A DNA stretch of 64,000 bases from a virus (lineage: Duplodnaviria; Heunggongvirae; Uroviricota; Caudoviricetes): IMG/VR virus record IMGVR_UViG_2870083564_000004, positions 34,943 through 98,942 of that record; one strand, 5' to 3'. The position numbers and the translations under genes are program-made. The notes below the pieces were generated by a model. The model saw only the letters and a list, made by a program, of their open reading frames with translations. It was not told the DNA's origin and ran no database searches. Numbering within the stretch: the first letter of the stretch is position 1; each line of letters begins with the position of its first letter. Positions 34,491-49,209 of the stretch are shown piece by piece.

Positions 34491-34748
34491 ATGCACTCAA
34501 TCGAATTCACCAAACAAGCCGCCCAAGCCCTCAAGGCAATGCCGCGCAACATTTCGGCGACGATTCGGGCAAAGATCGATGCACTGGCAGTTGACCCCTA
34601 CGCACCGAATCCGAACGCGAAGAAGTTAGCGGGCCAGCCCGGCTACCGGCTCCGAGTTGGCGATTGGCGTGTGTTGTACGAAATCGAAGATGGCCGCGTC
34701 GTGATCGTTGTGCTGGCCGTCAAACCCCGTGGAGGTGCCTACAAATGA
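34491..34748 (+). CDS. type II toxin, RelE/ParE family
   Basis: 85 aa with ...GYRLRVGDWRVLYEIEDGRVVIVVLAVKPR, the RelE/ParE C-terminal signature. Confidence 0.75.
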   Translation: MHSIEFTKQAAQALKAMPRNISATIRAKIDALAVDPYAPNPNAKKLAGQPGYRLRVGDWRVLYEIEDGRVVIVVLAVKPRGGAYK

Positions 34749-35131
34749 CCGAAGTTCAATTTATCGAGCAGGACGGCCACCGGGCCTTTGCCGTGGTCCC
34801 CATCGAACTGTGGGACCGCGTGAAGGACCTAATCGAAGATCTCGAAGATGAAGCGCTCTACGCGCAGGCCAAGGCAAACGACGACGGCCGCCGCATCCCG
34901 GCCGCTGTGCTCGATGCTGAACTGGCGGGCGATCACCCTGTTCGAGCTTGGCGCAATCATCTGCGCATGACGCAAGATGCGCTCGCCGCAGCAGCCGGCA
35001 TCAGCAAACCGTATCTCAGCCAGATCGAAACCCGGCAGCGCGTCGGCACTACCGACGTGCTGTCTAAGATCGCCAGCGCACTTGCAGTGCCCGTCGACGA
35101 CTTGATCGAGCCGCCGCCCGCACAGTCGTAA
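34745..35131 (+). CDS. antitoxin, XRE-family HTH (HigA-like, toxin-first operon)
   Basis: ATGA overlap with the toxin. C-terminal HTH (MTQDALAAAAGISKPYLSQIE). Confidence 0.7.
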   Translation: MTEVQFIEQDGHRAFAVVPIELWDRVKDLIEDLEDEALYAQAKANDDGRRIPAAVLDAELAGDHPVRAWRNHLRMTQDALAAAAGISKPYLSQIETRQRVGTTDVLSKIASALAVPVDDLIEPPPAQS

Positions 35132-35397
35132 CGCAATGTCGCTCGTCTCGTCGGCCTGCGTAATGCAGTCGCATGAACGCGATGACCGCCACAGCCGCAC
35201 GCACCCAGTGCGGACGACGGCGAAACATCAGAACGGCCATAGCAACTCCGGGCGCGGAAATGAAAAAGCCCCGCGCGGCGAACCGGCGGGGCTTCTCGCA
35301 TGCAACTTGTGCAGCGTGGTGAAAATCATATACTGCTGTAACAGGAGCGTCAAGTAGGTATGTGGCACGCCCACGCGGTTCAGCGGAGAACTGGGGA

Positions 35398-35922
35398 ATG
35401 GCGGCGAACGCGAAGGTCAGCAACGAAAAGAAGAACCTCAACCGGCTGGCAGGCGAGTTTCTGGTCGCCTCACGCCTGACTCAGCGTGGCTACATGGTGG
35501 CACTGCAATGGGGTACGACTATCGGCTACGACGTTCTCGTGTTCGACAAGAGCGGCAACTCGGCCTTCCTTGAAATCAAATCGTCCGCGTCAAACTCTCG
35601 CCGCTGGCTGCTCCAACAGAAATACGCGAACCCGCGCGCGGACAAAATACCAGCGAACCGCCGATTTGTTTGCTGTGTGGATCTGGCAATCAAGGGCAAA
35701 GAGCCGGATGTCTACGTGTTCCCCGCAACGGTCGTAGCGGATGGGTTGCACTACTTCTTCGCCAGCAAATTCCCAAACAGCCCCAGTTATCACTTGTCAC
35801 TCGACTTCAAGCCGCAATACCGCACGAAGGAGGATGGGGTGCTGACGGTCGGGCAACACATCGAGGCCGAGACATTCTTGGAAAACTATGCCGTGATCGG
35901 AATCGAGACCGTCACGGGATAG
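35398..35922 (+). CDS. stand-alone PD-(D/E)xK-like nuclease-fold protein, unknown function
   Basis: AGEFLVASRL...GYDVLVFDKSGNSAFLEIKSS gives an E, D and ExK pattern. Confidence 0.4.
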   Translation: MAANAKVSNEKKNLNRLAGEFLVASRLTQRGYMVALQWGTTIGYDVLVFDKSGNSAFLEIKSSASNSRRWLLQQKYANPRADKIPANRRFVCCVDLAIKGKEPDVYVFPATVVADGLHYFFASKFPNSPSYHLSLDFKPQYRTKEDGVLTVGQHIEAETFLENYAVIGIETVTG

Positions 35923-36072: not shown

Positions 36073-36080
36073 GACAGGCC
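36073..36080. repeat. target-site duplication GACAGGCC (left copy)
   Basis: Identical 8-mer abuts both IS66 ends; the other copy is at 38552-38559. Confidence 0.7.
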
Positions 36081-36115
36081 GTAAGCGACCAGCCAACCCG
36101 TCTTGACGAGCGAGT

Positions 36116-37690
36116 TTAAGCGGCAGTCGAGAGAGGTTGCCAACGATGCGGCAGTAGCGCGTCGATGTCGTTGGCCTTGTGGGTCGGCAAGCGTGTGAGG
36201 ACGTCCTTCAGATAGGCGAGCGGATCGAGCCCGTTCAGTTGCGCCGATCGAATCAAGCTCATGATGGCGGCCGCGCGCTGACCCGCACGCAGTGATCCGG
36301 CGAACAACCAATTGGACCGACCGACTGCCCACGGTCGGATCTGGTTTTCGACCCAGTTGTTGTCGATCGGCACATTGCCGTCATCGAGATAGCGCGTGAG
36401 TGCGTCCCATCGTTTCAGGCTGTAGTCCAGCGCCTTCGCAATCGCCGAGCCGTCCGCAACGAGTTTGCGCTGCGCCATCAACCATTCATAGAGGGCGTCG
36501 CACACCGGCTTGGCCCGACGCTGTCGAAGCCGCTGCCGTTCGTCGACATCCAGTGCTGCGGCCTCGCGTTCGATGTCGTAGAGCGCGGTAAAGAACGGCA
36601 GGGCCTGCCCCGCAACATGGCTGCTGTGGTTGGCATGCAATTCAAAGAACTTGCGTCGAGCATGGGCCGCGCATCCGATCTCGGTGATGCCGTGCTGGAA
36701 CGAGGCCTTGTACCCGCTGTAGTCGTCGCATACCAGTTTGCCGTGCCAGCCCGTCAGGAACGTGCGAGCGTGCGCACCGGCGCGGCTCTCGGCGAAGTCG
36801 TAGACCACCGCGCGCAGTTCGCTGAACTGAGTCGACGTATACGCCCACAGGTATGCCCGGTGCGTTTTGCCCTTGCCGGGACTGAGCATTTGCACCGGCG
36901 TCTCGTCGGCGTGCAACACCGCCTGTTGCCGGATGGCCTGGCCGAGTGCGTCGACCAACGGCTGCAACTGCACGCCACACCGGCCCACCCAGGCACCCAG
37001 CGTGGATCTCGGGATGGCCAGTCCCGCACGACCAAAGATCTGTTCCTGGCGATACAGGGGCAGGTGGTCGCCGTACTTGGCGACCAGCACCTGCGCGAGC
37101 AACCTGGCGGTGGGCATGCCCTTGTCGATCACATGCGGTGGAACCGGCGCTTGGATCAGCGTCTCGCACGCTTTGCACACCCACTTGCCGCGGATGTGCC
37201 GTTCCACCGTAAACACACCCGGCGTGTAGTCCAGCTTCTCGCTCACGTCCTCGCCGATCCGTATGCGTTCGCAACCGCACTGGCACGTTGTGCTGTCCGG
37301 TTCGTGATGGACGTCGGTGCGTGGCAGTTGCGGCGGCAGTGGTGCCCGTTTCGGCTGCTCGCGTTGCCGTTCAGCTCGCGTCGGCTCAAGTTGCTCAAGC
37401 TCCATCTCGATGGCAACCAAGTCGCCATCGATCGCCTCGTCGAGCAGGTTCATCTGCTCGCTGTTGAGCTGTTCGCTGCGCCGGCCGAACTGCTGGCGCT
37501 TGAGGATCGAGATCTCATGGGTAAGCTGGTCGATGCGGGTCTGCTTGTAGCGGAGTTCCCGATCTCGTTCACTGGCTTCCCGCTCCTTCTCGTGGATCGC
37601 CTGGTCCTTCGACTGGACCTCTGCAATCAGTTGCGCAGTCAGGGCGCGCAACTGCTCCGGGGTGAGTGCGTCGAGGTCAGCGGGATTCAT
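36116..37690 (-). CDS. tnpC: IS66 transposase TnpC
   Basis: 524 aa with N-terminal coiled coil/Leu zipper, a CxxC zinc motif and a DDE core typical of IS66 TnpC. Confidence 0.85.
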   Translation of the reverse strand: MNPADLDALTPEQLRALTAQLIAEVQSKDQAIHEKEREASERDRELRYKQTRIDQLTHEISILKRQQFGRRSEQLNSEQMNLLDEAIDGDLVAIEMELEQLEPTRAERQREQPKRAPLPPQLPRTDVHHEPDSTTCQCGCERIRIGEDVSEKLDYTPGVFTVERHIRGKWVCKACETLIQAPVPPHVIDKGMPTARLLAQVLVAKYGDHLPLYRQEQIFGRAGLAIPRSTLGAWVGRCGVQLQPLVDALGQAIRQQAVLHADETPVQMLSPGKGKTHRAYLWAYTSTQFSELRAVVYDFAESRAGAHARTFLTGWHGKLVCDDYSGYKASFQHGITEIGCAAHARRKFFELHANHSSHVAGQALPFFTALYDIEREAAALDVDERQRLRQRRAKPVCDALYEWLMAQRKLVADGSAIAKALDYSLKRWDALTRYLDDGNVPIDNNWVENQIRPWAVGRSNWLFAGSLRAGQRAAAIMSLIRSAQLNGLDPLAYLKDVLTRLPTHKANDIDALLPHRWQPLSTAA

Positions 37691-37753
37691 GCAGGCCAGT
37701 CTGCCAGAACGCTGTAGGCGGTGGAAGCTGAACTGTTTACGCCTCCGTCGTAC

Positions 37754-38092
37754 TCAGACGACACGGATCACGCCACTCCCGCCAATGCGTTGCCACGGCA
37801 GGCCCAGCACCAGGCCGGCCAGTTGTTCGTGCGTCAGTTCATGCTGCTTCGGTTCGCTGCCGGCGTGCGGCCAGGCAAATTGCCCCTGATTCAGACGTCG
37901 TGCTGCCAACCAAATGCCGATCCCGTCGTGGATCAGGACCTTCATGCGGTTGGCGCGGCGATTGGCGAACAGATAAGCATGGTGTGGGTGCGCGGCACCG
38001 AATACCTTGACCACGCGCGCCAAGGCCGTGTCGAAACCGGCACGCATGTCCAGCGGATCGGTCGCCAGCCAGATCTCGTCGACGCGGATCAC
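37754..38092 (-). CDS. tnpB: IS66 TnpB (Orf2)
   Basis: IRVDEIWLATDPLDMRAGFDTALARVV...; GTG start overlaps the TnpA stop (GTGA). Confidence 0.8.
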   Translation of the reverse strand: MIRVDEIWLATDPLDMRAGFDTALARVVKVFGAAHPHHAYLFANRRANRMKVLIHDGIGIWLAARRLNQGQFAWPHAGSEPKQHELTHEQLAGLVLGLPWQRIGGSGVIRVV

Positions 38093-38472
38093 CGCATCCA
38101 CTCGCGCAGCCAGGCGGCACACTGGGCGGCTTCGGACACGGGCCAACTGACCGTGATCGACTGATCGCCCCGGCGCACCTCGATGCGGATCTCTGCCGAG
38201 TGCGGACTCGGCGCTCCCAATGGCACCGACACAAAGGCTGGCAGCGACGGTGGCGTGGCCGGTGGACGACCCAGCGGTCTCTTGGGAAGTCGCCCCTCCG
38301 CCTGATCGATCCAGCGCCGCAGCAGATTCGCGTTGAGCCGGTGTTCCAGCGCGACCGCAGCAACCGATACGCCGATTCCCTGGCACGCAGCTACCACCTG
38401 CGCCTTGAACTCCTCGCTGTACCGTTGCCGGCGACGACGCTCGGGGAGTGCTTCCGATTCGATAGTGTTCAC
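38089..38472 (-). CDS. tnpA: IS66 TnpA (Orf1)
   Basis: 127 aa, HTH-like (YSEEFKAQVVAAC), first ORF of IS66. Confidence 0.75.
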   Translation of the reverse strand: MNTIESEALPERRRRQRYSEEFKAQVVAACQGIGVSVAAVALEHRLNANLLRRWIDQAEGRLPKRPLGRPPATPPSLPAFVSVPLGAPSPHSAEIRIEVRRGDQSITVSWPVSEAAQCAAWLREWMR

Positions 38473-38551
38473 GTGTCCGCTTATTCGTTAGGTGGACACG
38501 ATACTCCCAAGAGCTTTACCCCAACTCAAGACGGGTTGCCCGGCCGCTTAC

Positions 38552-38559
38552 GACAGGCC
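38552..38559. repeat. target-site duplication GACAGGCC (right copy)
   Basis: See left copy. Confidence 0.7.
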
Positions 38560-38564
38560 GAGCT

Positions 38565-39371
38565 ATGTATCTACTGTATTGCGATGAGACGAACTTTCAG
38601 AAGCTCTCGGGTGACTTCTTCGTCTACGGAGGAATCGTTATTGATGGCGCGAAGGCAGGCATGCTTGCTGACACACTTTCAAAGATTCGAAAGTCCTATG
38701 GCGTGCCGAACGAGTTCTTAGTGAAGTTCAACCCTGGGCCGCAGCATCTATCCCATATGGATTTCATCGGCCTGAAACAGGCTTATATTGCTGCCGCCGC
38801 CGAGAACGATGTCTTGTTGCTCGTGAACCTTTTGCTACATGACATCGCAAAATCATCTGACGATGCGAGACGATTCGGGATCAATACGCTTTGCTACCAC
38901 TTCGATTGCTACCTGCACAGACCAAAAGCACCGGGACTTGTTTTGATTGATCGCTTCAACGACAAGAAACTAGACGATCAATTGAAGGAGAAAGCGGCGG
39001 TTGGTTTAACCGGGCCCATTGCCTATTCTGGTGAGAAAACGCTAAAGTACATAATCGGCTATCACCTCTCGTCCATCGGACAGTCGCACTTCTGTAGCTT
39101 GGTAGATGTCGTAATTGGATCGCTTCGGTTCGCTATTAACGCCTTCACGCAGGGCAAGGAAGAGCACATGGACTCGGCTGGCGCGATCTTGAATCAGCTG
39201 TCCCCCTTGTTCTTCCGCGAAGGCAAGCCACCTGGCAATACGAAGGCAGTCGACCTGATCAGCTTCTGGTTCAGTCCGGCGAAAGTAAGTGTGGCCAAGT
39301 ACCGTGAGAAATACTTGGCCTTGCGCGACTTCTTGCAGGCTCAAGGCATCGAGATTGAGCAGGTCTTGTAG
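38565..39371 (+). CDS. DUF3800-like protein, unknown function
   Basis: N-terminus MYLLYCDETNF resembles the DUF3800 (YIDESG) start. GC is low for the region. The IS66 right end lies 13 bp upstream of its ATG. Confidence 0.45.
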   Translation: MYLLYCDETNFQKLSGDFFVYGGIVIDGAKAGMLADTLSKIRKSYGVPNEFLVKFNPGPQHLSHMDFIGLKQAYIAAAAENDVLLLVNLLLHDIAKSSDDARRFGINTLCYHFDCYLHRPKAPGLVLIDRFNDKKLDDQLKEKAAVGLTGPIAYSGEKTLKYIIGYHLSSIGQSHFCSLVDVVIGSLRFAINAFTQGKEEHMDSAGAILNQLSPLFFREGKPPGNTKAVDLISFWFSPAKVSVAKYREKYLALRDFLQAQGIEIEQVL

Positions 39372-39798
39372 ATCAAATATGGGTATCCCCGCACGCATAG
39401 ATCGCAAGGCGGCATGGCCTTCGCGCCTCGCAGCCCTCTCCGAGAACGTCACGCCGTGGCGATACGACGGCAACGTTCTGGCTACGGATCTTTGACTTTG
39501 AGTGACTCCAATGGGGTGGATCAAATATCGTTTGTGGATCGATCTTCGCCGCTCGGAAGTCTAACAGGGGTCGGAACCTTCGTACGAAGACCGCGGCCGG
39601 AAGCGGCCAAGAACCGCCATTGAAAGATAGAATTTGACCAGCAGTGCTTTCTGTTTGCGGACATTCGTGCTGACCGCGTAGATGACCGCTGCAGGGGCGA
39701 GCGGGCACCACTCCAAGAGTGGGCGGCTTACCCCACCTTGGCAAGAGGAACCTTTCCGCTAAACTCTGCGGACCAACATCTCACAACGAGGGACGCAC

Positions 39799-41370
39799 AT
39801 GGCAGGGGCCCACAAGATCACACCGTCAAACCCACGACTTTCGTCGCTGCTCACCGACGTGGCGAGGGGGAACATCAAGATTCCCGTCTTCCAGCGTGAG
39901 TACGTCTGGGATGACGAGCAGATCATGAGCTTGCTCGACTCGATCTACCGAGGTTTCCCAGTTGGTTCGCTGCTACTTTGGTCCACCAAGGAGGCGCTCG
40001 AGCATGAGCGCAACGTAGGAGGCTTCGAGCTGCCGAAGACGCCGGAGGATTTCCCGGTCAACTATGTCCTCGACGGTCAGCAGCGTCTGACCACGCTCTA
40101 CGGTGTTTTCAACTCGGACGCGAAGACATCTGACCCGGAGCTGGCCGACCGGTTCAGCGTGTGCTTCGTGCCTTCCACCGAGGAGTTCATCCACTACGCT
40201 GAGGCTGATCCGAAAAGTTCGATCAACCTTCGTGTCATTCTCGACACGACGAAGCTCCTTCCCGAGATAACGCGCTTCGACGACGACATGAAGACGGTGA
40301 TTGCAAACCTCACCGAGCGCTTCAAGGACTACGAGTTCCCGGTCGTTACCATCAGGGATCGCACCAACCAAGAGGTCTGTCGCGTCTTCCAGCGCATCAA
40401 CTCGTCAGGGACGAGCCTCAGCACGCTCGAACTGCTTGCGGCCTGGACGTGGTCGGATCAGTTTGATCTCAGGAAGGAAATCGAGGGGGTTCTCGACAAG
40501 CTCGCGGACAAAGGGTACGACCAGCTTGATGAGGGGTTGCTCCTGCGCAGCCTCGCGGCTGTGGTGCTGAACAGTATCGACGCCGATGCTTTAGTCGATT
40601 TGCCGCCGGAGAACTTGATCGACGGCATGCTGCGTTTGAAGCAGGCAATCTACGCCACCGTGGATTTTCTGGAGAAGGAACTGCACATCAAGAACGTGGT
40701 CTTCATCCCGTTTCCAATCATGTTCGTTCCGCTTGTGAAATTCTTTTCCCTGACGCTGAAGCCTAACGCAGCACAACTGGCGGGACTCAAGCGCTGGTTC
40801 TGGTTTGTTGCCTTCACGCAGCGCTACAAGGCGGGTACCAATGTCGCTGTCATGGAAGATATCCGCGCGATGCACGACCTGGCGAACGGTGATCCGGTAT
40901 TCGACGCGATCGATGCTGAGGTTTCGCCCAGCCTCTTCATGAAGACGTGGCGGATCAATTCGACCGCGGCCAAGGCCACGATTTGTCTCCTTGCGCAGTA
41001 CGCGCCACGCAGCTTCCTTTCGAACAGTTTGGTAGACCTGAGCACGGCCATGTCCGCGTACAACGCGCGCGAGTTCCACCACGTCTATCCGAAGGCATTT
41101 CTGAACTCCCAGGGTATCAAGTTCAGCGAGTCCAACATCATCGCCAACGTCTGCTTCCTAAATCAGGCCGACAACCGCGCGATCAGCGACTCGTCACCCG
41201 CGGACTACATGCCCAAAATCGACACCGCGCGTCGCCCCTCGATTGCTGCTTCGTCACTGCTTCCGGTCGCCGCGATGGACGGTTCGATGACCTACGCTGA
41301 CTTCATCCAGATGCGCGCAGAGATGTTGGCAGTAGCCGCGCGCAAGCTCATCAAGACTGCGGCGGTTTGA
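39799..41370 (+). CDS. GmrSD-family type IV restriction endonuclease-like protein (DUF262 + DUF1524)
   Basis: N-terminal PVFQREYVW and DGQQRLT (DUF262 ParB-like NTPase), and C-terminal REFHHVYPKA...N (DUF1524 His-Me finger). Confidence 0.7.
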   Translation: MAGAHKITPSNPRLSSLLTDVARGNIKIPVFQREYVWDDEQIMSLLDSIYRGFPVGSLLLWSTKEALEHERNVGGFELPKTPEDFPVNYVLDGQQRLTTLYGVFNSDAKTSDPELADRFSVCFVPSTEEFIHYAEADPKSSINLRVILDTTKLLPEITRFDDDMKTVIANLTERFKDYEFPVVTIRDRTNQEVCRVFQRINSSGTSLSTLELLAAWTWSDQFDLRKEIEGVLDKLADKGYDQLDEGLLLRSLAAVVLNSIDADALVDLPPENLIDGMLRLKQAIYATVDFLEKELHIKNVVFIPFPIMFVPLVKFFSLTLKPNAAQLAGLKRWFWFVAFTQRYKAGTNVAVMEDIRAMHDLANGDPVFDAIDAEVSPSLFMKTWRINSTAAKATICLLAQYAPRSFLSNSLVDLSTAMSAYNAREFHHVYPKAFLNSQGIKFSESNIIANVCFLNQADNRAISDSSPADYMPKIDTARRPSIAASSLLPVAAMDGSMTYADFIQMRAEMLAVAARKLIKTAAV

Positions 41371-41681
41371 AGTCCGTCATTCGCCTGTTGCGGGGTTATC
41401 TCGCCGCGCTTGCGCGGGGGAGGCCCACGCTACTCGACGGACTTCCATCAACGCCGCGTCAGAGTTCGCGACAGCTATCGGCAGTAGAGCGACCGCAGAT
41501 GAGGTGGTAGGTGAAGGACTGCAATCGCAAGCAGAAATTGCCCAACGAAACCCGAATGGCTGTAATGGGTCGGTAACGGTCGAAACACGATTCACTACTC
41601 TTGAAGTGACGCTGACCGCAGCGGCCTCCTGCGCAACACTGGCACTGAAACGTCGCATCGGCGGCCCACCGAAAGCGCGTT

Positions 41682-42341
41682 TCACGCGGATTCCGCTATA
41701 CCGCTTATCAGCCCTGTCTCTTCAAAATATGCCGTAAGCCGCCCCACCGCTAGCGCCTCCACTTCTCGCAAGCGCTGCTCAATCTTTTGATATGCGCGCT
41801 TGTACGTCATATGGCTCGCGCCGAAGCTGCGTTCGAGGTCGCGGAAGCTGATCGTCGCCCGCGCGTGATTCGCATACAGCCGAGCGAGCAGGCAGTCGAG
41901 CGCGAGATTCGATATGCCGGGGAACGACGGCTGCAGCCAACGCGAAAGGCTCTGGATCGCTTCCGCACGCTCGGCGAGGAAGTAGTAGCGCTTCACGCCA
42001 TCGCCGTCCCGCGTGTCCCCCATTTGCCCAAAACGCGCGATCACCGCCCATCGCTCGACGTACATCAGCTTCGTGCGGACCGCGCTCACCACGGCGGCAC
42101 ATTGCGCCCGCACTTCCGCCATGTCCAGCCCGCTGAAATTCACGGTCGATTCGGCGGCCGAGCCGGTCAATTGCCCGAGCCACTTGCGCTGATCTTCCGA
42201 CAGTTCGGGCTCGAGCTCCATCGCCCGAATGAGCGCCGTTCGGAGCACGTTCTTCGCGCGTGGCTCGCTCGCCAGAATCAGAAACGACACGTGCAGCGCT
42301 TGGCGAGTGCTGTCGAAAATGAAATCCATCTGTTGTCTCAT
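41682..42341 (-). CDS. putative transcription regulator (C-terminal sigma-70 region-4-like HTH); candidate late-gene activator
   Basis: ISFRDLERSFGASHMTYKRAYQKIEQRL resembles a region-4/LuxR-type HTH. Its position is that expected for Q-like regulators. Confidence 0.3.
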   Translation of the reverse strand: MRQQMDFIFDSTRQALHVSFLILASEPRAKNVLRTALIRAMELEPELSEDQRKWLGQLTGSAAESTVNFSGLDMAEVRAQCAAVVSAVRTKLMYVERWAVIARFGQMGDTRDGDGVKRYYFLAERAEAIQSLSRWLQPSFPGISNLALDCLLARLYANHARATISFRDLERSFGASHMTYKRAYQKIEQRLREVEALAVGRLTAYFEETGLISGIAESA

Positions 42342-46500: not shown

Positions 46501-47592
46501 TCAAGCGCTTTCGAAAATGAATGCTGGCTGCCGCAGACGATCGCGCTGCAGCAGCTCGTAATCGGGGTTGAGTTCGCAGCCGACGAATCGGCGACCAAGG
46601 CGCTGCGCAACCTGCCCGGTCGTGCCGCTGCCGAAGAATGGGTCGAAGACGACGTCGCCCGGTCGGCTGCCGGCCAGCACGCACGGCTCGACAAGCGCCT
46701 CCGGAAAAGTCGCAAAATGTGCAGCCGCATATGGTTGTGTGGCGATCGTCCAGACGCTGCGCTTCGTCCGCGTCTGCGCCATCGACTCGTCAGAATTGAC
46801 CCGCTGCGAGAAGTCGACGAGCCCGGCTTTCGTTCGGTGCTCATATGCGCCGTCGTGATACGCGGCCGTACCTTTGTACGCCTTGTTGCCAGGCAAGTTC
46901 GATCGACGACCCTTCTCACGACCTTCGCGGTGAAATGAGCCATGCGCGCCGGCGCCGGTATCCCAGCCGTCCGGCATCTTGGACGCATCGGGATTCCACG
47001 CAGACGGCTCGCGGATCGCCTCATGATCGAAGTAGTACCGCTCGCTCTTGCTGAGCAGGAACAGGTACTCGTGCGCCTTCGTGCAACGATCCCGCACGCT
47101 CTCGGGCATCGGGTTCGGCTTGTGCCAGATGATGTCCTGCCGGAGATACCAGCCGGCGTCCTGAAGCGCGAACGCGAGTCGCCACGGCTGCCCCATCAGG
47201 TCTTTCACCTTCAGGCCATCGACGCCCGCCTTCCGGTTGCTCAGGCAGACGTTCTCTTTCGCGCGAGTGCGTCCGGCGAACAGTTCGCCGCGCATTGGCG
47301 TTTGTCCGCCTGACGACGCGTAACTGTCACCCATGTTCAGCCAGAGCGTGCCGTCGTCGACGAGCAGCTCGCGCGCGAGGTCGAACACCTCGACGAGCGT
47401 GTCAATGAACTCACGCAGCGTCGGCTCGCTGCCGATCTCGCGATGCTTGTCCGGATGGCCGTCCGGTAGATACGAGCGGAGGCCCCAGTACGGCGGCGAC
47501 GTAACGATCGTCTGCACCTTCACGCCGTCGGCAATCATTGCGCGCATGAGGTCGCGACAGTCGCCGCGGTGGGATTTGTCGAGCCAGCTCAT
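46501..47592 (-). CDS. DNA methyltransferase, beta-class (N6A or N4C)
   Basis: TSPPY (motif IV) near the N-terminus and [11 protein letters not shown] (motif I) at the C-terminus. Confidence 0.75.
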
Positions 47593-48821
47593 CCGATCAC
47601 CCCTCGACACGCTTCAATCCACGCGACCGCCGCTTCCGCGTTGATCGCGTTGCCGTAGGCGCGCAGTCGTCCCACTCGCGCGGGAGCCCCATGAGCCAGC
47701 GGCTGTGTGCCGGGTTCAACTGGCCGCCACTTTCCATCCCGGCAGAGGAGCCAGTCAGCATCTCGCCAGAAGCCGTTAGTCGGGCCGGCTGGCTCGATTC
47801 GCTCGAAGCCGTCAGGTAGGCCATCGCCGCTAGATCCGCTCCGTGCGAGCGCATCGCTTCGCGAATGCCGCCTTCCGTTGACCGCACGCCCTTGTCCGCG
47901 AGTGCCGCTGTCGGTGTCGGCCAACCCGCGAATTGCGCCACGTGATTCAGGCTCACCGCGACCTTGCGGCCGTCTGGTGTCTTGCCTGTCGAACTCAGCC
48001 CCTCGAACGATTGCGAGCCCATCGCGTTGCCCACCGTCGGGGTCGGCCACCCGGCAAGTTGAACTTGGTGATCGAGCGTCGTCACCGATTGCCCGCACGA
48101 CAGGCCCACTTTCCTCGCAAGCGCTTGCTCCGGCGTGCCGCCCGGTGCCGAGGCGTTCGGCGTGCCCCATCCGGCTAGCCAAGCCACTCGACCGAGCAGC
48201 GCGTTCAGCGGCACGTTCGCGCATTCCGCGCCGTCCTTGTGATCGCGCGTGGTTGGCGTAGGCCATCCAGTACGCGCGATCCCGGATGTGCGGAGCACCG
48301 ACGCCCGCAGACGGGAACGGGACACACCCATAGGCGTAGTCCAAGGCTTCCACGTCAGCTTGAACAAGGTCGATCCAAGGGTCGACAGCCGAGCTCGCAA
48401 CCTGCTCTCCAAGGATGATTGCAGGGCGGCGCTCGCCGATGAGCCAGTACCACGCAGGCCAGAGATGCCGCTCGTCATCAAACCCAAGTCCTTTGCCTGC
48501 CGCGCTGAAAGGTTGGCAAGGACAGGAACCGGTCCAAACAGGTCGATCGTCGGGCCATCCGGCGCGACGGAGCGCGTAGGACCAGACGCCGACGCCGGCG
48601 AAGAAATGGCACTGGGTGTAGCCGCGCAGGTCGTCGGGATGCACGTCGCGGATGTCGCGCTCGTCGACGTCGCCAGGCGCAATGTGACCGGCGGCGATGA
48701 GGTTTCGCAGCCATGCGGCGGCGACTGGATCGTGCTCGTTGTAGTAGGCGACACTCAAGCGCTCCCCACTACTCGGCCATACCGCGCAGCCGCGCGGAAA
48801 TATCGAGAAGCACCTGCGCAT
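47589..48821 (-). CDS. DNA cytosine-5 methyltransferase
   Basis: FAGVGV (motif I-like), PCQPFS (motif IV), GEQV (ENV-like) and GNAINAEAA (motif X). The start is uncertain and may overlap the 3' end of the CII-like gene. Confidence 0.6.
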
Positions 48822-49209
48822 GCTTGAAGATTCGGTGATCCACGCGCTCGATCTCGTGCCGCTCGACACGGCCGTCTTCGAGCGTCTTCACGATCTCCTG
48901 TCCGACGTCGCCGTGCGTGGACCACGCCTTGCCCATCAGTTCGACGATCGCGGCGTCGCAGCAGTCCACAGCGCTCGGCAACTTCACGAGCGCATAACCC
49001 CGCGCCGTAGCCCACGCTTCGAGCATCCGATCGTCGTCGGTCACGTCCGTCGCGCGAACCGCGTCAGCGAGCCCGAGGTGATGCGTAGCGTTGTTTGGGT
49101 TCACCTTGTTCCGCAGCACCGCCGCCGACATACCAAGACGCGGCGCGAGCGACTCACTGCCGCCCGGGTAATCGTGAACAACCGCGTATGCGGCGTCGAT
49201 GATGTTCAT
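48769..49209 (-). CDS. CII-like regulator (Phage_CP76 family)
   Basis: AAYAVVHDYPGGSESLAPRLGMSAAVLRNKVNPNNATHHL. Confidence 0.6.
   Translation of the reverse strand: MNIIDAAYAVVHDYPGGSESLAPRLGMSAAVLRNKVNPNNATHHLGLADAVRATDVTDDDRMLEAWATARGYALVKLPSAVDCCDAAIVELMGKAWSTHGDVGQEIVKTLEDGRVERHEIERVDHRIFKHAQVLLDISARLRGMAE

What the first reader, a model, noticed from the sequence alone, without database searches (positions are those of the whole stretch)
38565..41370. GmrSD-like type IV restriction enzyme (DUF262+DUF1524) paired with a DUF3800-like gene in a prophage accessory hotspot
ORF 39799-41370 carries both halves of the GmrSD/BrxU/SspE architecture: a ParB-like NTPase domain and a His-Me endonuclease domain. 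Such enzymes cut modified DNA. The upstream gene 38565-39371 has a DUF3800-like N-terminus and much lower GC. Both sit between the packaging genes and the nin/late-regulator region, a classic lambdoid defence hotspot. Whether DUF3800 is functionally linked to the GmrSD-like gene is unknown.
Basis: partly seen in the sequence, partly recalled or inferred. Interest (0 to 1): 0.65.

Follow-up and report, generated by a model that had tools for sequence, protein, structure and literature searches.

The report
Prophage BrxU-like restriction gene, unlinked DUF3800 neighbour
A Burkholderia prophage carries, in a variable accessory slot, a stand-alone BrxU/GmrSD-type restriction enzyme gene and an RNase H2-like DUF3800 gene; comparison with related genomes shows they are separate cassettes that sit side by side by chance, so this is a fairly ordinary new member of a known defence family.

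Summary
Both ORFs are real, at the stated coordinates. ORF 39799-41370 has a clear DUF262/GmrSD_N domain. Pfam's DUF1524 model does not hit it, even at E<=10. However, its family profile and a confident AlphaFold model both match BrxU over the whole length, and it carries an intact-looking ββα-Me motif. That motif reads H427-H428...N450...N459, not the D-H-N-N of GmrSD and BrxU. It is most likely a stand-alone NTP-dependent type IV (modification-dependent) restriction enzyme. Its best PADLOC model is the untested candidate PDC-M55C.

ORF 38565-39371 is a full-length DUF3800 protein with an RNase H2-like fold, conserved acidic residues and 50% GC.

The site is a variable slot in phi1026b/phiE125-like prophages. 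The two genes are not a pair. A 99.9%-identical prophage keeps the DUF3800 gene but has an AriA-like ATPase cassette in place of the DUF262 gene. The DUF262 cassette is 89% identical to a B. gladioli chromosomal locus that has no DUF3800. None of 87 DUF262-family loci had a DUF3800 within 4 kb. Only 1 of 30 DUF3800 loci had even a distant DUF262.

An IS66 sits 13 nt upstream of the DUF3800 start codon. Verdict: new member of a known kind, modest interest.

The parts
39799..41370 (+). 523-aa stand-alone DUF262 (ParB/Srx-like NTPase) + helical linker + divergent DUF1524-like ββα-Me nuclease. Motifs: Q32-R33, LLDS45-48, DGQQR92-96, F197xxxN201, E425-F-H427-H428-V-Y-P431, N450, N459.
   Evidence: - Pfam GmrSD_N at 2.5e-33; PADLOC PDC-M55C at 6e-71 over the full length.
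- Motif conservation.
- BrxU match by family profile and by Foldseek at 3.6e-14.
- AF2 mean pLDDT 90.6, with β426-428 / β451-453 / α456-462.
38565..39371 (+). 268-aa DUF3800 protein with an RNase H2/HII-like fold. Invariant residues include D7, E8, H92, D129, R130, Q173, H175 and D181. GC 50.3%.
   Evidence: - Pfam PF12686 at 25.5 bits, cut-off 21.
- Alignment A1.
- AF2 mean pLDDT 85.8.
- GC content.
38552..39609 (+). DUF3800 module as shared with other Stanholtvirus-type prophages: the gene plus 238 nt downstream.
   Evidence: - 99.9% identical to L117 and 93.7% to L007/L008, none of which has the DUF262 gene.
- Internally deleted in phiBt-TXDOH and L119.
39610..41566 (+). The swapped segment of the hotspot. 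Its core, 39651-41418, is the DUF262 cassette: 148 nt upstream of the gene, the gene itself, and 48 nt downstream.
   Evidence: - The flanks are 99.9% identical to L117, which has a different 2.9-kb insert here.
- 39651-41418 is 89% identical to B. gladioli L004 4437-6200.
39738..39765 (+). Sigma-70-like promoter match inside the DUF262 cassette. This suggests the gene has its own promoter.
   Evidence: Consensus scan, 9 of 12 matches. It was the only hit in the region, and 0.8 hits are expected by chance, so the evidence is weak.
36081..38551 (-). IS66-family insertion sequence. orfA 38089-38472, TnpB-like orfB within 37754-38164, transposase 36116-37690. Terminal inverted repeats begin GTAAGCG.
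   Evidence: - Pfam DDE_Tnp_IS66 at 2.3e-103, TnpB_IS66 at 4.9e-27, HTH_Tnp_1.
- Empty site in L007, L008 and L117.
- Element ends read directly from the sequence.
36073..36080 (.). Left copy of the 8-bp target-site duplication GACAGGCC.
   Evidence: Read directly from the sequence. L117 has a single copy at the empty site.
38552..38559 (.). Right copy of the 8-bp target-site duplication GACAGGCC. It ends 5 nt before the DUF3800 ATG.
   Evidence: Read directly from the sequence.

Best explanation
The region is a variable accessory (moron/defence) slot of a phi1026b/phiE125-like Burkholderia prophage. It holds two independent single-gene cassettes and an IS66.

(1) ORF 39799-41370. This encodes a stand-alone BrxU/GmrSD-type enzyme. 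The N-terminal DUF262 ParB/Srx-like domain would bind and hydrolyse NTP through the LLDS and DGQQR motifs, as in BrxU. This would license the C-terminal ββα-Me (HNH-type) nuclease (H427/H428 on β1, N450, N459 on the helix) to cut incoming DNA that carries a non-host base modification. The lysogen would thereby be protected from modified phages or other mobile DNA. Shown here: domain architecture, motif integrity, structural similarity, stand-alone mobility, and residence in defence or mobile-element contexts. Inferred: NTP dependence, modification dependence and the target modification.

(2) ORF 38565-39371. This is a separate DUF3800 RNase H2-like protein with a conserved D-E...D...D set. It is most likely a metal-dependent nuclease acting on RNA or RNA/DNA substrates. 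It travels alone through variable islands. Its function is inferred only from fold and context.

(3) Relationship. The two genes are adjacent by cassette shuffling, not by functional coupling. The IS66 inserted 13 nt upstream of the DUF3800 ATG probably cuts that gene off from its native promoter.
For: DUF262 protein:
- PF03235 at 2.5e-33.
- Motifs QR, LLDS, DGQQR and FxxxN are present and invariant or nearly so in the family.
- The family profile hits BrxU 7p9k at both the N-terminal part (4.6e-30) and the nuclease stretch. H427 and H428 align with BrxU D474 and H475.
- 12 of 58 relatives hit PF07510 directly.
- AF2 mean pLDDT 90.6 with a ββα element at 426-462. Foldseek's top three hits are all BrxU, at 3.6e-14.
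- BrxU and Eco94GmrSD biochemistry, and the essential D/H/N residues, come from PMC8565348 and PMC4619093.

Independence of the two genes:
- L117 is 99.9% identical in the flanks and in DUF3800, but has an AriA-like ATPase plus a 333-aa gene instead of DUF262, and has no IS66.
- L007 and L008 have DUF3800 without DUF262.
- The B. gladioli, P. aeruginosa (end of a Pf prophage) and P0002 loci have DUF262 without DUF3800.
- None of 87 loci carrying a clear DUF262-family gene had a DUF3800 match. Only 1 of 30 DUF3800 loci had any DUF262, and that one was distant, at 31 bits.
- The DUF3800 subfamily shares no neighbour gene across 24 genomes.

DUF3800 fold:

Hotspot:
- The slot's contents differ in five related phages, and some of the alternatives hit PADLOC models: AriA, PDC-S49.
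Against: - Pfam's DUF1524 model does not hit this protein at all. NCBIfam has no model for it.
- The acidic residue preceding the catalytic His (BrxU D474, Eco94GmrSD D507, both essential) is replaced by His. Activity is therefore assumed by analogy with HH-type HNH nucleases such as colicins (my own knowledge), not shown.
- The best PADLOC model belongs to a multi-gene candidate (PDC-M55, gene C) whose partners are absent here. A missing-partner scenario cannot be excluded.
- The prophage backbone itself encodes a C5-cytosine-methylase-like gene and an N6/N4 methylase. A promiscuous 5mC-cutting enzyme like BrxU would be self-harmful if both were expressed together.
- No experimental data exist for any close homologue. 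A search for the term PDC-M55 found no papers.
Confidence: 0.68

Rival explanations
1. The two genes form a functional two-gene defence system, with the DUF3800 nuclease working together with the DUF262 enzyme. This is the possibility the first reader raised.
For: - Same strand, 427 nt apart, both of lower GC than the backbone.
- Both have nuclease-type folds.
- DUF3800 is often linked to defence systems in the literature.
Against: - Different module boundaries and different nearest relatives.
- A near-isogenic prophage keeps DUF3800 and swaps only the DUF262 segment.
- No co-occurrence in 87 DUF262 loci, and only 1 distant case in 30 DUF3800 loci.
- The exact configuration was found on a single genome record.
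Confidence: 0.04
2. The DUF262 protein is an orphaned or partner-dependent component, such as gene C of the multi-gene candidate PDC-M55 or an SspE/DndB-like sensor of host DNA modification. On its own it would be inactive or would do something other than type IV restriction, for example nicking, DNA binding or plasmid interference.
For: - The best PADLOC hit is PDC-M55C, at 6e-71.
- Weak N-terminal hits to SspE, HEC-05 and Orf5 models.
- The catalytic motif differs from GmrSD (HH instead of DH).
- About 10 of 58 distant relatives lack the HH motif. The scaffold therefore also exists in forms without it.
Against: - No PDC-M55A/B or other PADLOC partners next to it in the window, or in the B. 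gladioli and P. aeruginosa loci scanned.
- It moves as a 1.8-kb single-gene cassette.
- Close homologues at 64-94% identity all retain HH-N-N.
- The SspE hits cover only residues about 15-101.
Confidence: 0.2
3. The genes serve the phage's own life cycle (replication, recombination or host takeover) and are not defence genes.
For: They lie next to the replication and nin-like region, which contains other nucleases: YbcO-like, DUF1064 and HNH.
Against: - Both are absent from most related phages: phi1026b, phiE125, vB_PR2b.
- Close homologues sit in non-phage chromosomal islands.
- The DUF3800 gene is internally deleted in the viable phage phiBt-TXDOH.
Confidence: 0.05

Closest known systems
BrxU (Escherichia fergusonii pEFER; PDB 7P9K/7P9M), a GmrSD-family type IV restriction enzyme
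   Same: - Single polypeptide of DUF262 + helical linker + C-terminal HNH-type nuclease.
- LFDS-like and DGQQR motifs; xHxxP...N...N nuclease motif.
- Best sequence-profile and structural match.
- Works as a stand-alone gene.
   Different: - Only 17-18% identity over the structural alignment.
- 523 aa against 587 aa.
- HH instead of DH at the catalytic strand.
- Not detected by Pfam DUF1524.
- Lies in a prophage slot, not a BREX island.
- Target modification unknown.
GmrSD / Eco94GmrSD (glc-hmC-dependent type IV enzymes)
   Same: Domain order and the defining DUF262 motifs QR, DGQQR and FxxxN. Carried on mobile elements.
   Different: - GmrD motifs (E/D)HxxPQ and LGNLxLL are replaced by EFHHxxPK and xANxxxL.
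- No direct PF07510 hit.
PADLOC candidate PDC-M55, gene C
   Same: Full-length match: residues 6-521 to model positions 9-537 of 554, E 6e-71. This is the closest catalogued family.
   Different: PDC-M55 is a multi-gene, experimentally untested candidate. No A or B partners were found in the loci scanned. No literature was found.
SspE (phosphorothioate-sensing DUF262-DUF1524 nickase)
   Same: DUF262 N-terminal domain.
   Different: - SspE is about 770 aa.
- Matches are limited to residues about 11-104.
- No ssp genes were seen among the neighbours scanned.
DUF3800 proteins of retron type VII-A2, Csx32 (CASK) and TPR-DUF3800 of Cas12a2/a3 loci
   Same: PF12686 membership, N-terminal DE motif, RNase H2-like fold.
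   Different: - Here it is a solitary 268-aa protein with no RT, Cas or TPR partner.
- None of the 11 DUF3800-associated RNA motifs is present.
- It has a Q173...D181 motif and a C-terminal extension.

Membership tests
GmrSD/BrxU family (type IV restriction) | N-terminal DUF262/GmrSD_N domain (PF03235) | tested here: met
   E 2.5e-33, 116 bits against a cut-off of 33.2, residues 15-216.
GmrSD/BrxU family (type IV restriction) | DUF262 motifs QR, (R)LFDS, (I/V)DGQQR and FxxxN | tested here: met
   FQR31-33, LLDS45-48, LDGQQR91-96 and F197-N201 are present. Q32, R33, S48, D92, G93, R96 and N201 are invariant in 58 relatives. The alignment to BrxU shows the motifs correspond. Motif definitions come from PMC4619093 and PMC8565348.
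GmrSD/BrxU family (type IV restriction) | C-terminal DUF1524/GmrSD_C domain detected by PF07510 | tested here: not met
   No hit on the whole protein or on residues 251-523, even at E<=10.
GmrSD/BrxU family (type IV restriction) | C-terminal His-Me (ββα-Me) nuclease homologous to that of BrxU/GmrD | tested here: met
   - 12 of 58 family members hit PF07510, best 8.5e-7.
- Family profile positions 429-525 align to BrxU 474-579.
- Foldseek matches BrxU over the full length at 3.6e-14.
- ββα element at 426-462 in the model.
GmrSD/BrxU family (type IV restriction) | Catalytic (D/E)-H...N...N tetrad | tested here: inconclusive
   His, Asn and Asn are conserved: H428 in 47/58, N450 in 57/58, N459 in 46/58. 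The acidic position is His (H427, 48/58), with E425 two residues upstream. HH is a known HNH variant (my own knowledge), but it is untested in this family.
GmrSD/BrxU family (type IV restriction) | NTP-dependent cleavage of modified DNA and a phage-restriction phenotype | not testable with these tools
   Needs biochemistry and plaque assays.
PADLOC PDC-M55 (multi-gene candidate) | Presence of gene C together with its partner genes A and B | tested here: not met
   Gene C matches at 6e-71. None of the neighbours scanned hits a PDC-M55 model: 3 window neighbours, 4 genes flanking the B. gladioli homologue and 2 flanking the P. aeruginosa homologue.
SspE / Dnd-type PT-sensing DUF262 proteins | Full-length similarity to SspE and linkage to ssp/dnd modification genes | tested here: not met
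   PADLOC and PDB SspE matches cover only residues about 11-104. No ssp/dnd genes among the neighbours scanned. The rest of the host genome could not be examined.
DUF3800 (PF12686) | Pfam match above the gathering score, plus the N-terminal DE and C-terminal Q..D motifs | tested here: met
   25.5 bits against a cut-off of 21, though only profile positions 1-77 of 149 are covered. D7, E8, Q173 and D181 are invariant in 28 relatives.
DUF3800 (PF12686) | RNase H2-like fold | tested here: met
DUF3800 (PF12686) | Association with a DUF3800-I to -XI structured RNA motif (Weinberg 2017) | tested here: not met
   - No Rfam match at E<=1 in 38400-41800.
- None at the gathering score in 16 homologous loci.
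- Downstream 241 nt fold z-scores of +0.83 and -0.56.
Hypothetical DUF3800+DUF262 two-gene system | Conserved co-localisation of the two families | tested here: not met
   No DUF3800 in 87 DUF262 loci, and 1 distant DUF262 in 30 DUF3800 loci. Cassette swap in the near-isogenic L117.

The most novel reading that the evidence does not exclude
The HH-motif, PF07510-invisible clade of DUF262 nucleases (PADLOC PDC-M55C-like) is widespread, with thousands of homologues including one at the end of P. aeruginosa Pf prophages. It might recognise something other than the cytosine modifications cut by GmrSD and BrxU, such as 7-deazaguanine or another hypermodification, or even unmodified foreign DNA. That would let it coexist with the prophage's own C5 and N6/N4 methylases. 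Separately, the solitary RNase H2-like DUF3800 cassette might itself be a new single-gene defence or counter-defence nuclease.
Probability: 0.15. Interest if true: 0.55.

Novelty: new member of a known kind. Interest (0 to 1): 0.3.

Why it matters
- It adds a prophage-borne, stand-alone BrxU-like enzyme to the accessory repertoire of phi1026b/phiE125-type phages of the Burkholderia pseudomallei group. This bears on phage host range and on phage-based diagnostics or therapy for these pathogens.
- It shows that standard Pfam annotation under-calls the nuclease half of a large DUF262 clade.
- It gives a clean natural example of cassette exchange at one prophage slot: flanks 99.9% identical, payloads different.
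DUF3800 is not coupled to the GmrSD-like gene, so the pair should not be catalogued as a new two-gene system.

Tried and rejected
- NCBIfam: no model for either protein.
- PHROGs: only unknown-function families.
- Plasmid DNA search: only the IS66 end matched.
- Literature search for 'PDC-M55': no papers.
- Searches for experimental data on the Pf-prophage homologue and on phi1026b/phiE125 methylases found nothing useful.
- I followed the lead that DUF3800 genes come with structured RNAs (PMC5737381). There were no Rfam hits in the window or in 16 homologous loci. nhmmer found no conservation of the downstream 280 nt beyond the closely related prophage. Folding gave no signal on either strand. 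Lead rejected.
- I looked for a conserved protein partner of this DUF3800 subfamily by all-against-all BLAST of neighbour ORFs in 24 genomes. At most 3 loci shared any neighbour. Rejected.
- I looked for PDC-M55 partner genes around three DUF262 contexts and found none.
- Direct PDB sequence search with the DUF3800 protein: no hit.
Full report
**Observation**

Both ORFs are present exactly as reported: 38565-39371 (+, 268 aa) and 39799-41370 (+, 523 aa). Both are real genes. Each has hundreds to thousands of full-length homologues across Proteobacteria and beyond. The DUF3800 ORF has 50.3% GC, against 60.4% for the window and 57.5% for the DUF262 ORF.

**Context**

The window is a phi1026b/phiE125-like (Stanholtvirus) Burkholderia prophage, with 29 phage records at 80-95% identity.
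- Left flank: phage HNH (34074-34430), a ParE/HTH toxin-antitoxin pair (34491-35131) and a 186-aa protein of phrog_26985.
- Right flank: conserved phage genes (phrog_17923, phrog_12352), a YbcO/HNH-like gene, DUF1064, then replication and ParB genes.
- Between these flanks, related phages carry entirely different genes. phi1026b has gp79 plus an 'ATP-binding protein'. vB_PR2b has a 174-aa gene plus a PDC-S49-like 577-aa gene. phiBt-TXDOH has many small genes plus a transposase.

The 'accessory hotspot' description is therefore correct.

**The DUF262 protein**

Pfam gives GmrSD_N at 2.5e-33 but no GmrSD_C/DUF1524, even when the C-terminal half is searched alone at E<=10. NCBIfam has nothing. 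The best PADLOC model is PDC-M55C over the full length (6e-71). Matches to HEC-05, NsnA, Orf5 and SspE are N-terminal only.

I aligned 58 relatives, down to 24% identity. The N-terminal motifs defined for GmrS and BrxU are all present and essentially invariant: QR, LFDS-like LLDS, DGQQR and FxxxN. The C-terminus carries the conserved motif E-F/Y-H-H-I/V-F/Y-P-K...N450 (57/58)...D-N459 (46/58)...P-S-x-Y.

Evidence that this C-terminal region is a BrxU-type nuclease:
- A profile of the family hits BrxU (7p9k) in two stretches: 12-338 (4.6e-30) and 429-525 against BrxU 474-579.
- In the second stretch, H427-H428 sit on BrxU D474-H475, the DHIYP nuclease motif.
- 12 of the 58 relatives are detected directly by PF07510, best 8.5e-7.
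- An AlphaFold model built on this alignment is confident (mean pLDDT 90.6). It shows β426-428, β451-453 and α456-462, the ββα arrangement expected of a His-Me finger.
- Foldseek against the PDB returns only BrxU chains as significant hits (3.6e-14, probability 1.00). ParB/Noc and Cas9 follow far behind.

The protein therefore has the GmrSD/BrxU architecture, but it belongs to a divergent clade that Pfam's DUF1524 model misses. In this clade the acidic residue before the catalytic His is itself a His. D474 in BrxU and D507 in Eco94GmrSD are essential. HH is the arrangement found in colicin-type HNH nucleases (my own knowledge), so the motif looks competent, but this is untested. About ten distant relatives lack the HH motif altogether. 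All close relatives (64-94% identity) keep it.

**The DUF3800 protein**

**Are the two genes linked?**

No. Pairwise DNA comparison splits the region into modules.
- a) IS66, 36081-38551. It has GTAAGCG inverted repeats and an 8-bp target duplication (GACAGGCC). It is absent, leaving a precise empty site, from L007, L008 and L117.
- b) The DUF3800 module, 38552-39609. It is shared at 99.9% with L117 and at 93.7% with L007/L008. It is present as an internally deleted remnant in phiBt-TXDOH and L119.
- c) Segment 39610-41566. Its core, 39651-41418, is 89% identical to a Burkholderia gladioli chromosomal locus. There the gene sits beside an ApeA-HEPN (PDC-S58-like) gene, with no DUF3800.

L117 is an IMG/VR prophage that is 99.9% identical on both sides. 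It carries the same DUF3800 gene. In place of segment (c) it has a 2.9-kb insert encoding an AriA-like AAA_21/AAA_15 ATPase and a 333-aa protein.

Further contexts point the same way:
- A 70%-identical homologue lies at the end of P. aeruginosa Pf filamentous prophages.
- A 93%-identical one lies next to unrelated genes.
- I scanned the six-frame ORFs of all 119 loci fetched to that point with HMMs of both families. None of the 87 loci carrying a clear DUF262-family gene had a DUF3800 match. Only one of the 30 DUF3800 loci, in Bradyrhizobium, had any DUF262, a distant one at 31 bits.
- The DUF3800 subfamily has no conserved neighbour in 24 genomes. It sits in mixed island contexts with a Cap4 nuclease, SymE, integrases, transposases and DUF4145.
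- The exact window configuration was found on only one genome record, CP018381.1.

**Leads that failed**

DUF3800 genes are reported to associate with 11 different structured RNA motifs (PMC5737381). None is detectable here or in 16 homologous loci. The 241 nt conserved downstream of the gene shows no folding signal. No PDC-M55 partner genes were found, and a search for that term found no papers.

**Mechanism (best estimate)**

The 523-aa protein most likely acts as a stand-alone, NTP-driven, modification-dependent endonuclease of the BrxU type. Expressed from its own cassette, it would protect the lysogen against phages with modified DNA. A weak promoter-like site lies at 39738-39765. The prophage also encodes an N6/N4 methylase and a C5-methylase-like gene 5-7 kb away. 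Its specificity is therefore presumably compatible with those marks, or its expression is separated from theirs in time. This is untested.

The DUF3800 protein is probably a metal-dependent RNase H2-like nuclease with an independent, unknown role. In this strain the IS66 leaves only 13 nt of native sequence upstream of its start codon, which probably alters its expression (inference).

**Verdict**

The gene pairing is refuted as a functional unit. This is a new member of a known kind, in a divergent and experimentally unvalidated clade, and of modest interest.

Noticed in passing
window 36081-38551 (target-site duplications at 36073-36080 and 38552-38559): A complete IS66-family element (orfA, TnpB-like orfB, DDE transposase, all on the minus strand). 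It has GTAAGCG terminal repeats and an 8-bp target duplication, and is inserted 13 nt upstream of the DUF3800 ATG. Precise empty sites exist in three related prophages (L007, L008, L117).
   Followed up: yes
L117 5046-7936 (IMGVR_UViG_2547132251_000003), the counterpart of window 39610-41566: A prophage 99.9% identical in the flanks carries an AriA-like AAA_21/AAA_15 ATPase (477 aa) plus an unannotated 333-aa protein where the window has the DUF262 cassette. This is a clean recent cassette swap. All variants diverge immediately after a small GGCCG-GAAG-CGGCC hairpin at window 39595-39608.
   Followed up: partly
window 46501-47610 (-) and 47589-48869 (-): The prophage backbone encodes an N6_N4 DNA methylase (2.8e-50) and a C5-cytosine-methylase-like protein (partial PF00145 match, 4e-9), 5-7 kb from the type IV-like gene. 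This raises the question of self-compatibility.
   Followed up: no
L002 3833-4255 (phiBt-TXDOH) and L119 3987-4409: These phages retain only the first 97 nt of the DUF3800 gene, its last 76 nt and the downstream region. Window 38662-39295 is deleted. The gene is therefore dispensable for a viable phage.
   Followed up: partly
window 34491-35131 and 35362-35922: A ParE-family toxin and HTH antitoxin pair, and a 186-aa phrog_26985 protein with weak NOV_C and PDC-S36 similarity. Together they form the conserved left border of the hotspot in several related phages.
   Followed up: no
L009-L012 6001-7575 (P. aeruginosa): A 70%-identical homologue of the DUF262 protein sits directly at the end of Pf-type filamentous prophages, next to Zot and coat genes, in many P. 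aeruginosa genomes.
   Followed up: no
alignment A2 (P0314, P0326, P0332, P0346, P0348, P0350, P0371, P0374, P0377, P0382): About ten distant full-length relatives have lost the HH motif and the second Asn of the nuclease motif but keep the DUF262 motifs. They are presumably a nuclease-dead sub-clade.
   Followed up: no
window 41419-41566: A 148-bp stretch between the end of the B. gladioli-like cassette and the resumption of the phage backbone. It matches none of the compared loci, and its origin is unknown.
   Followed up: no
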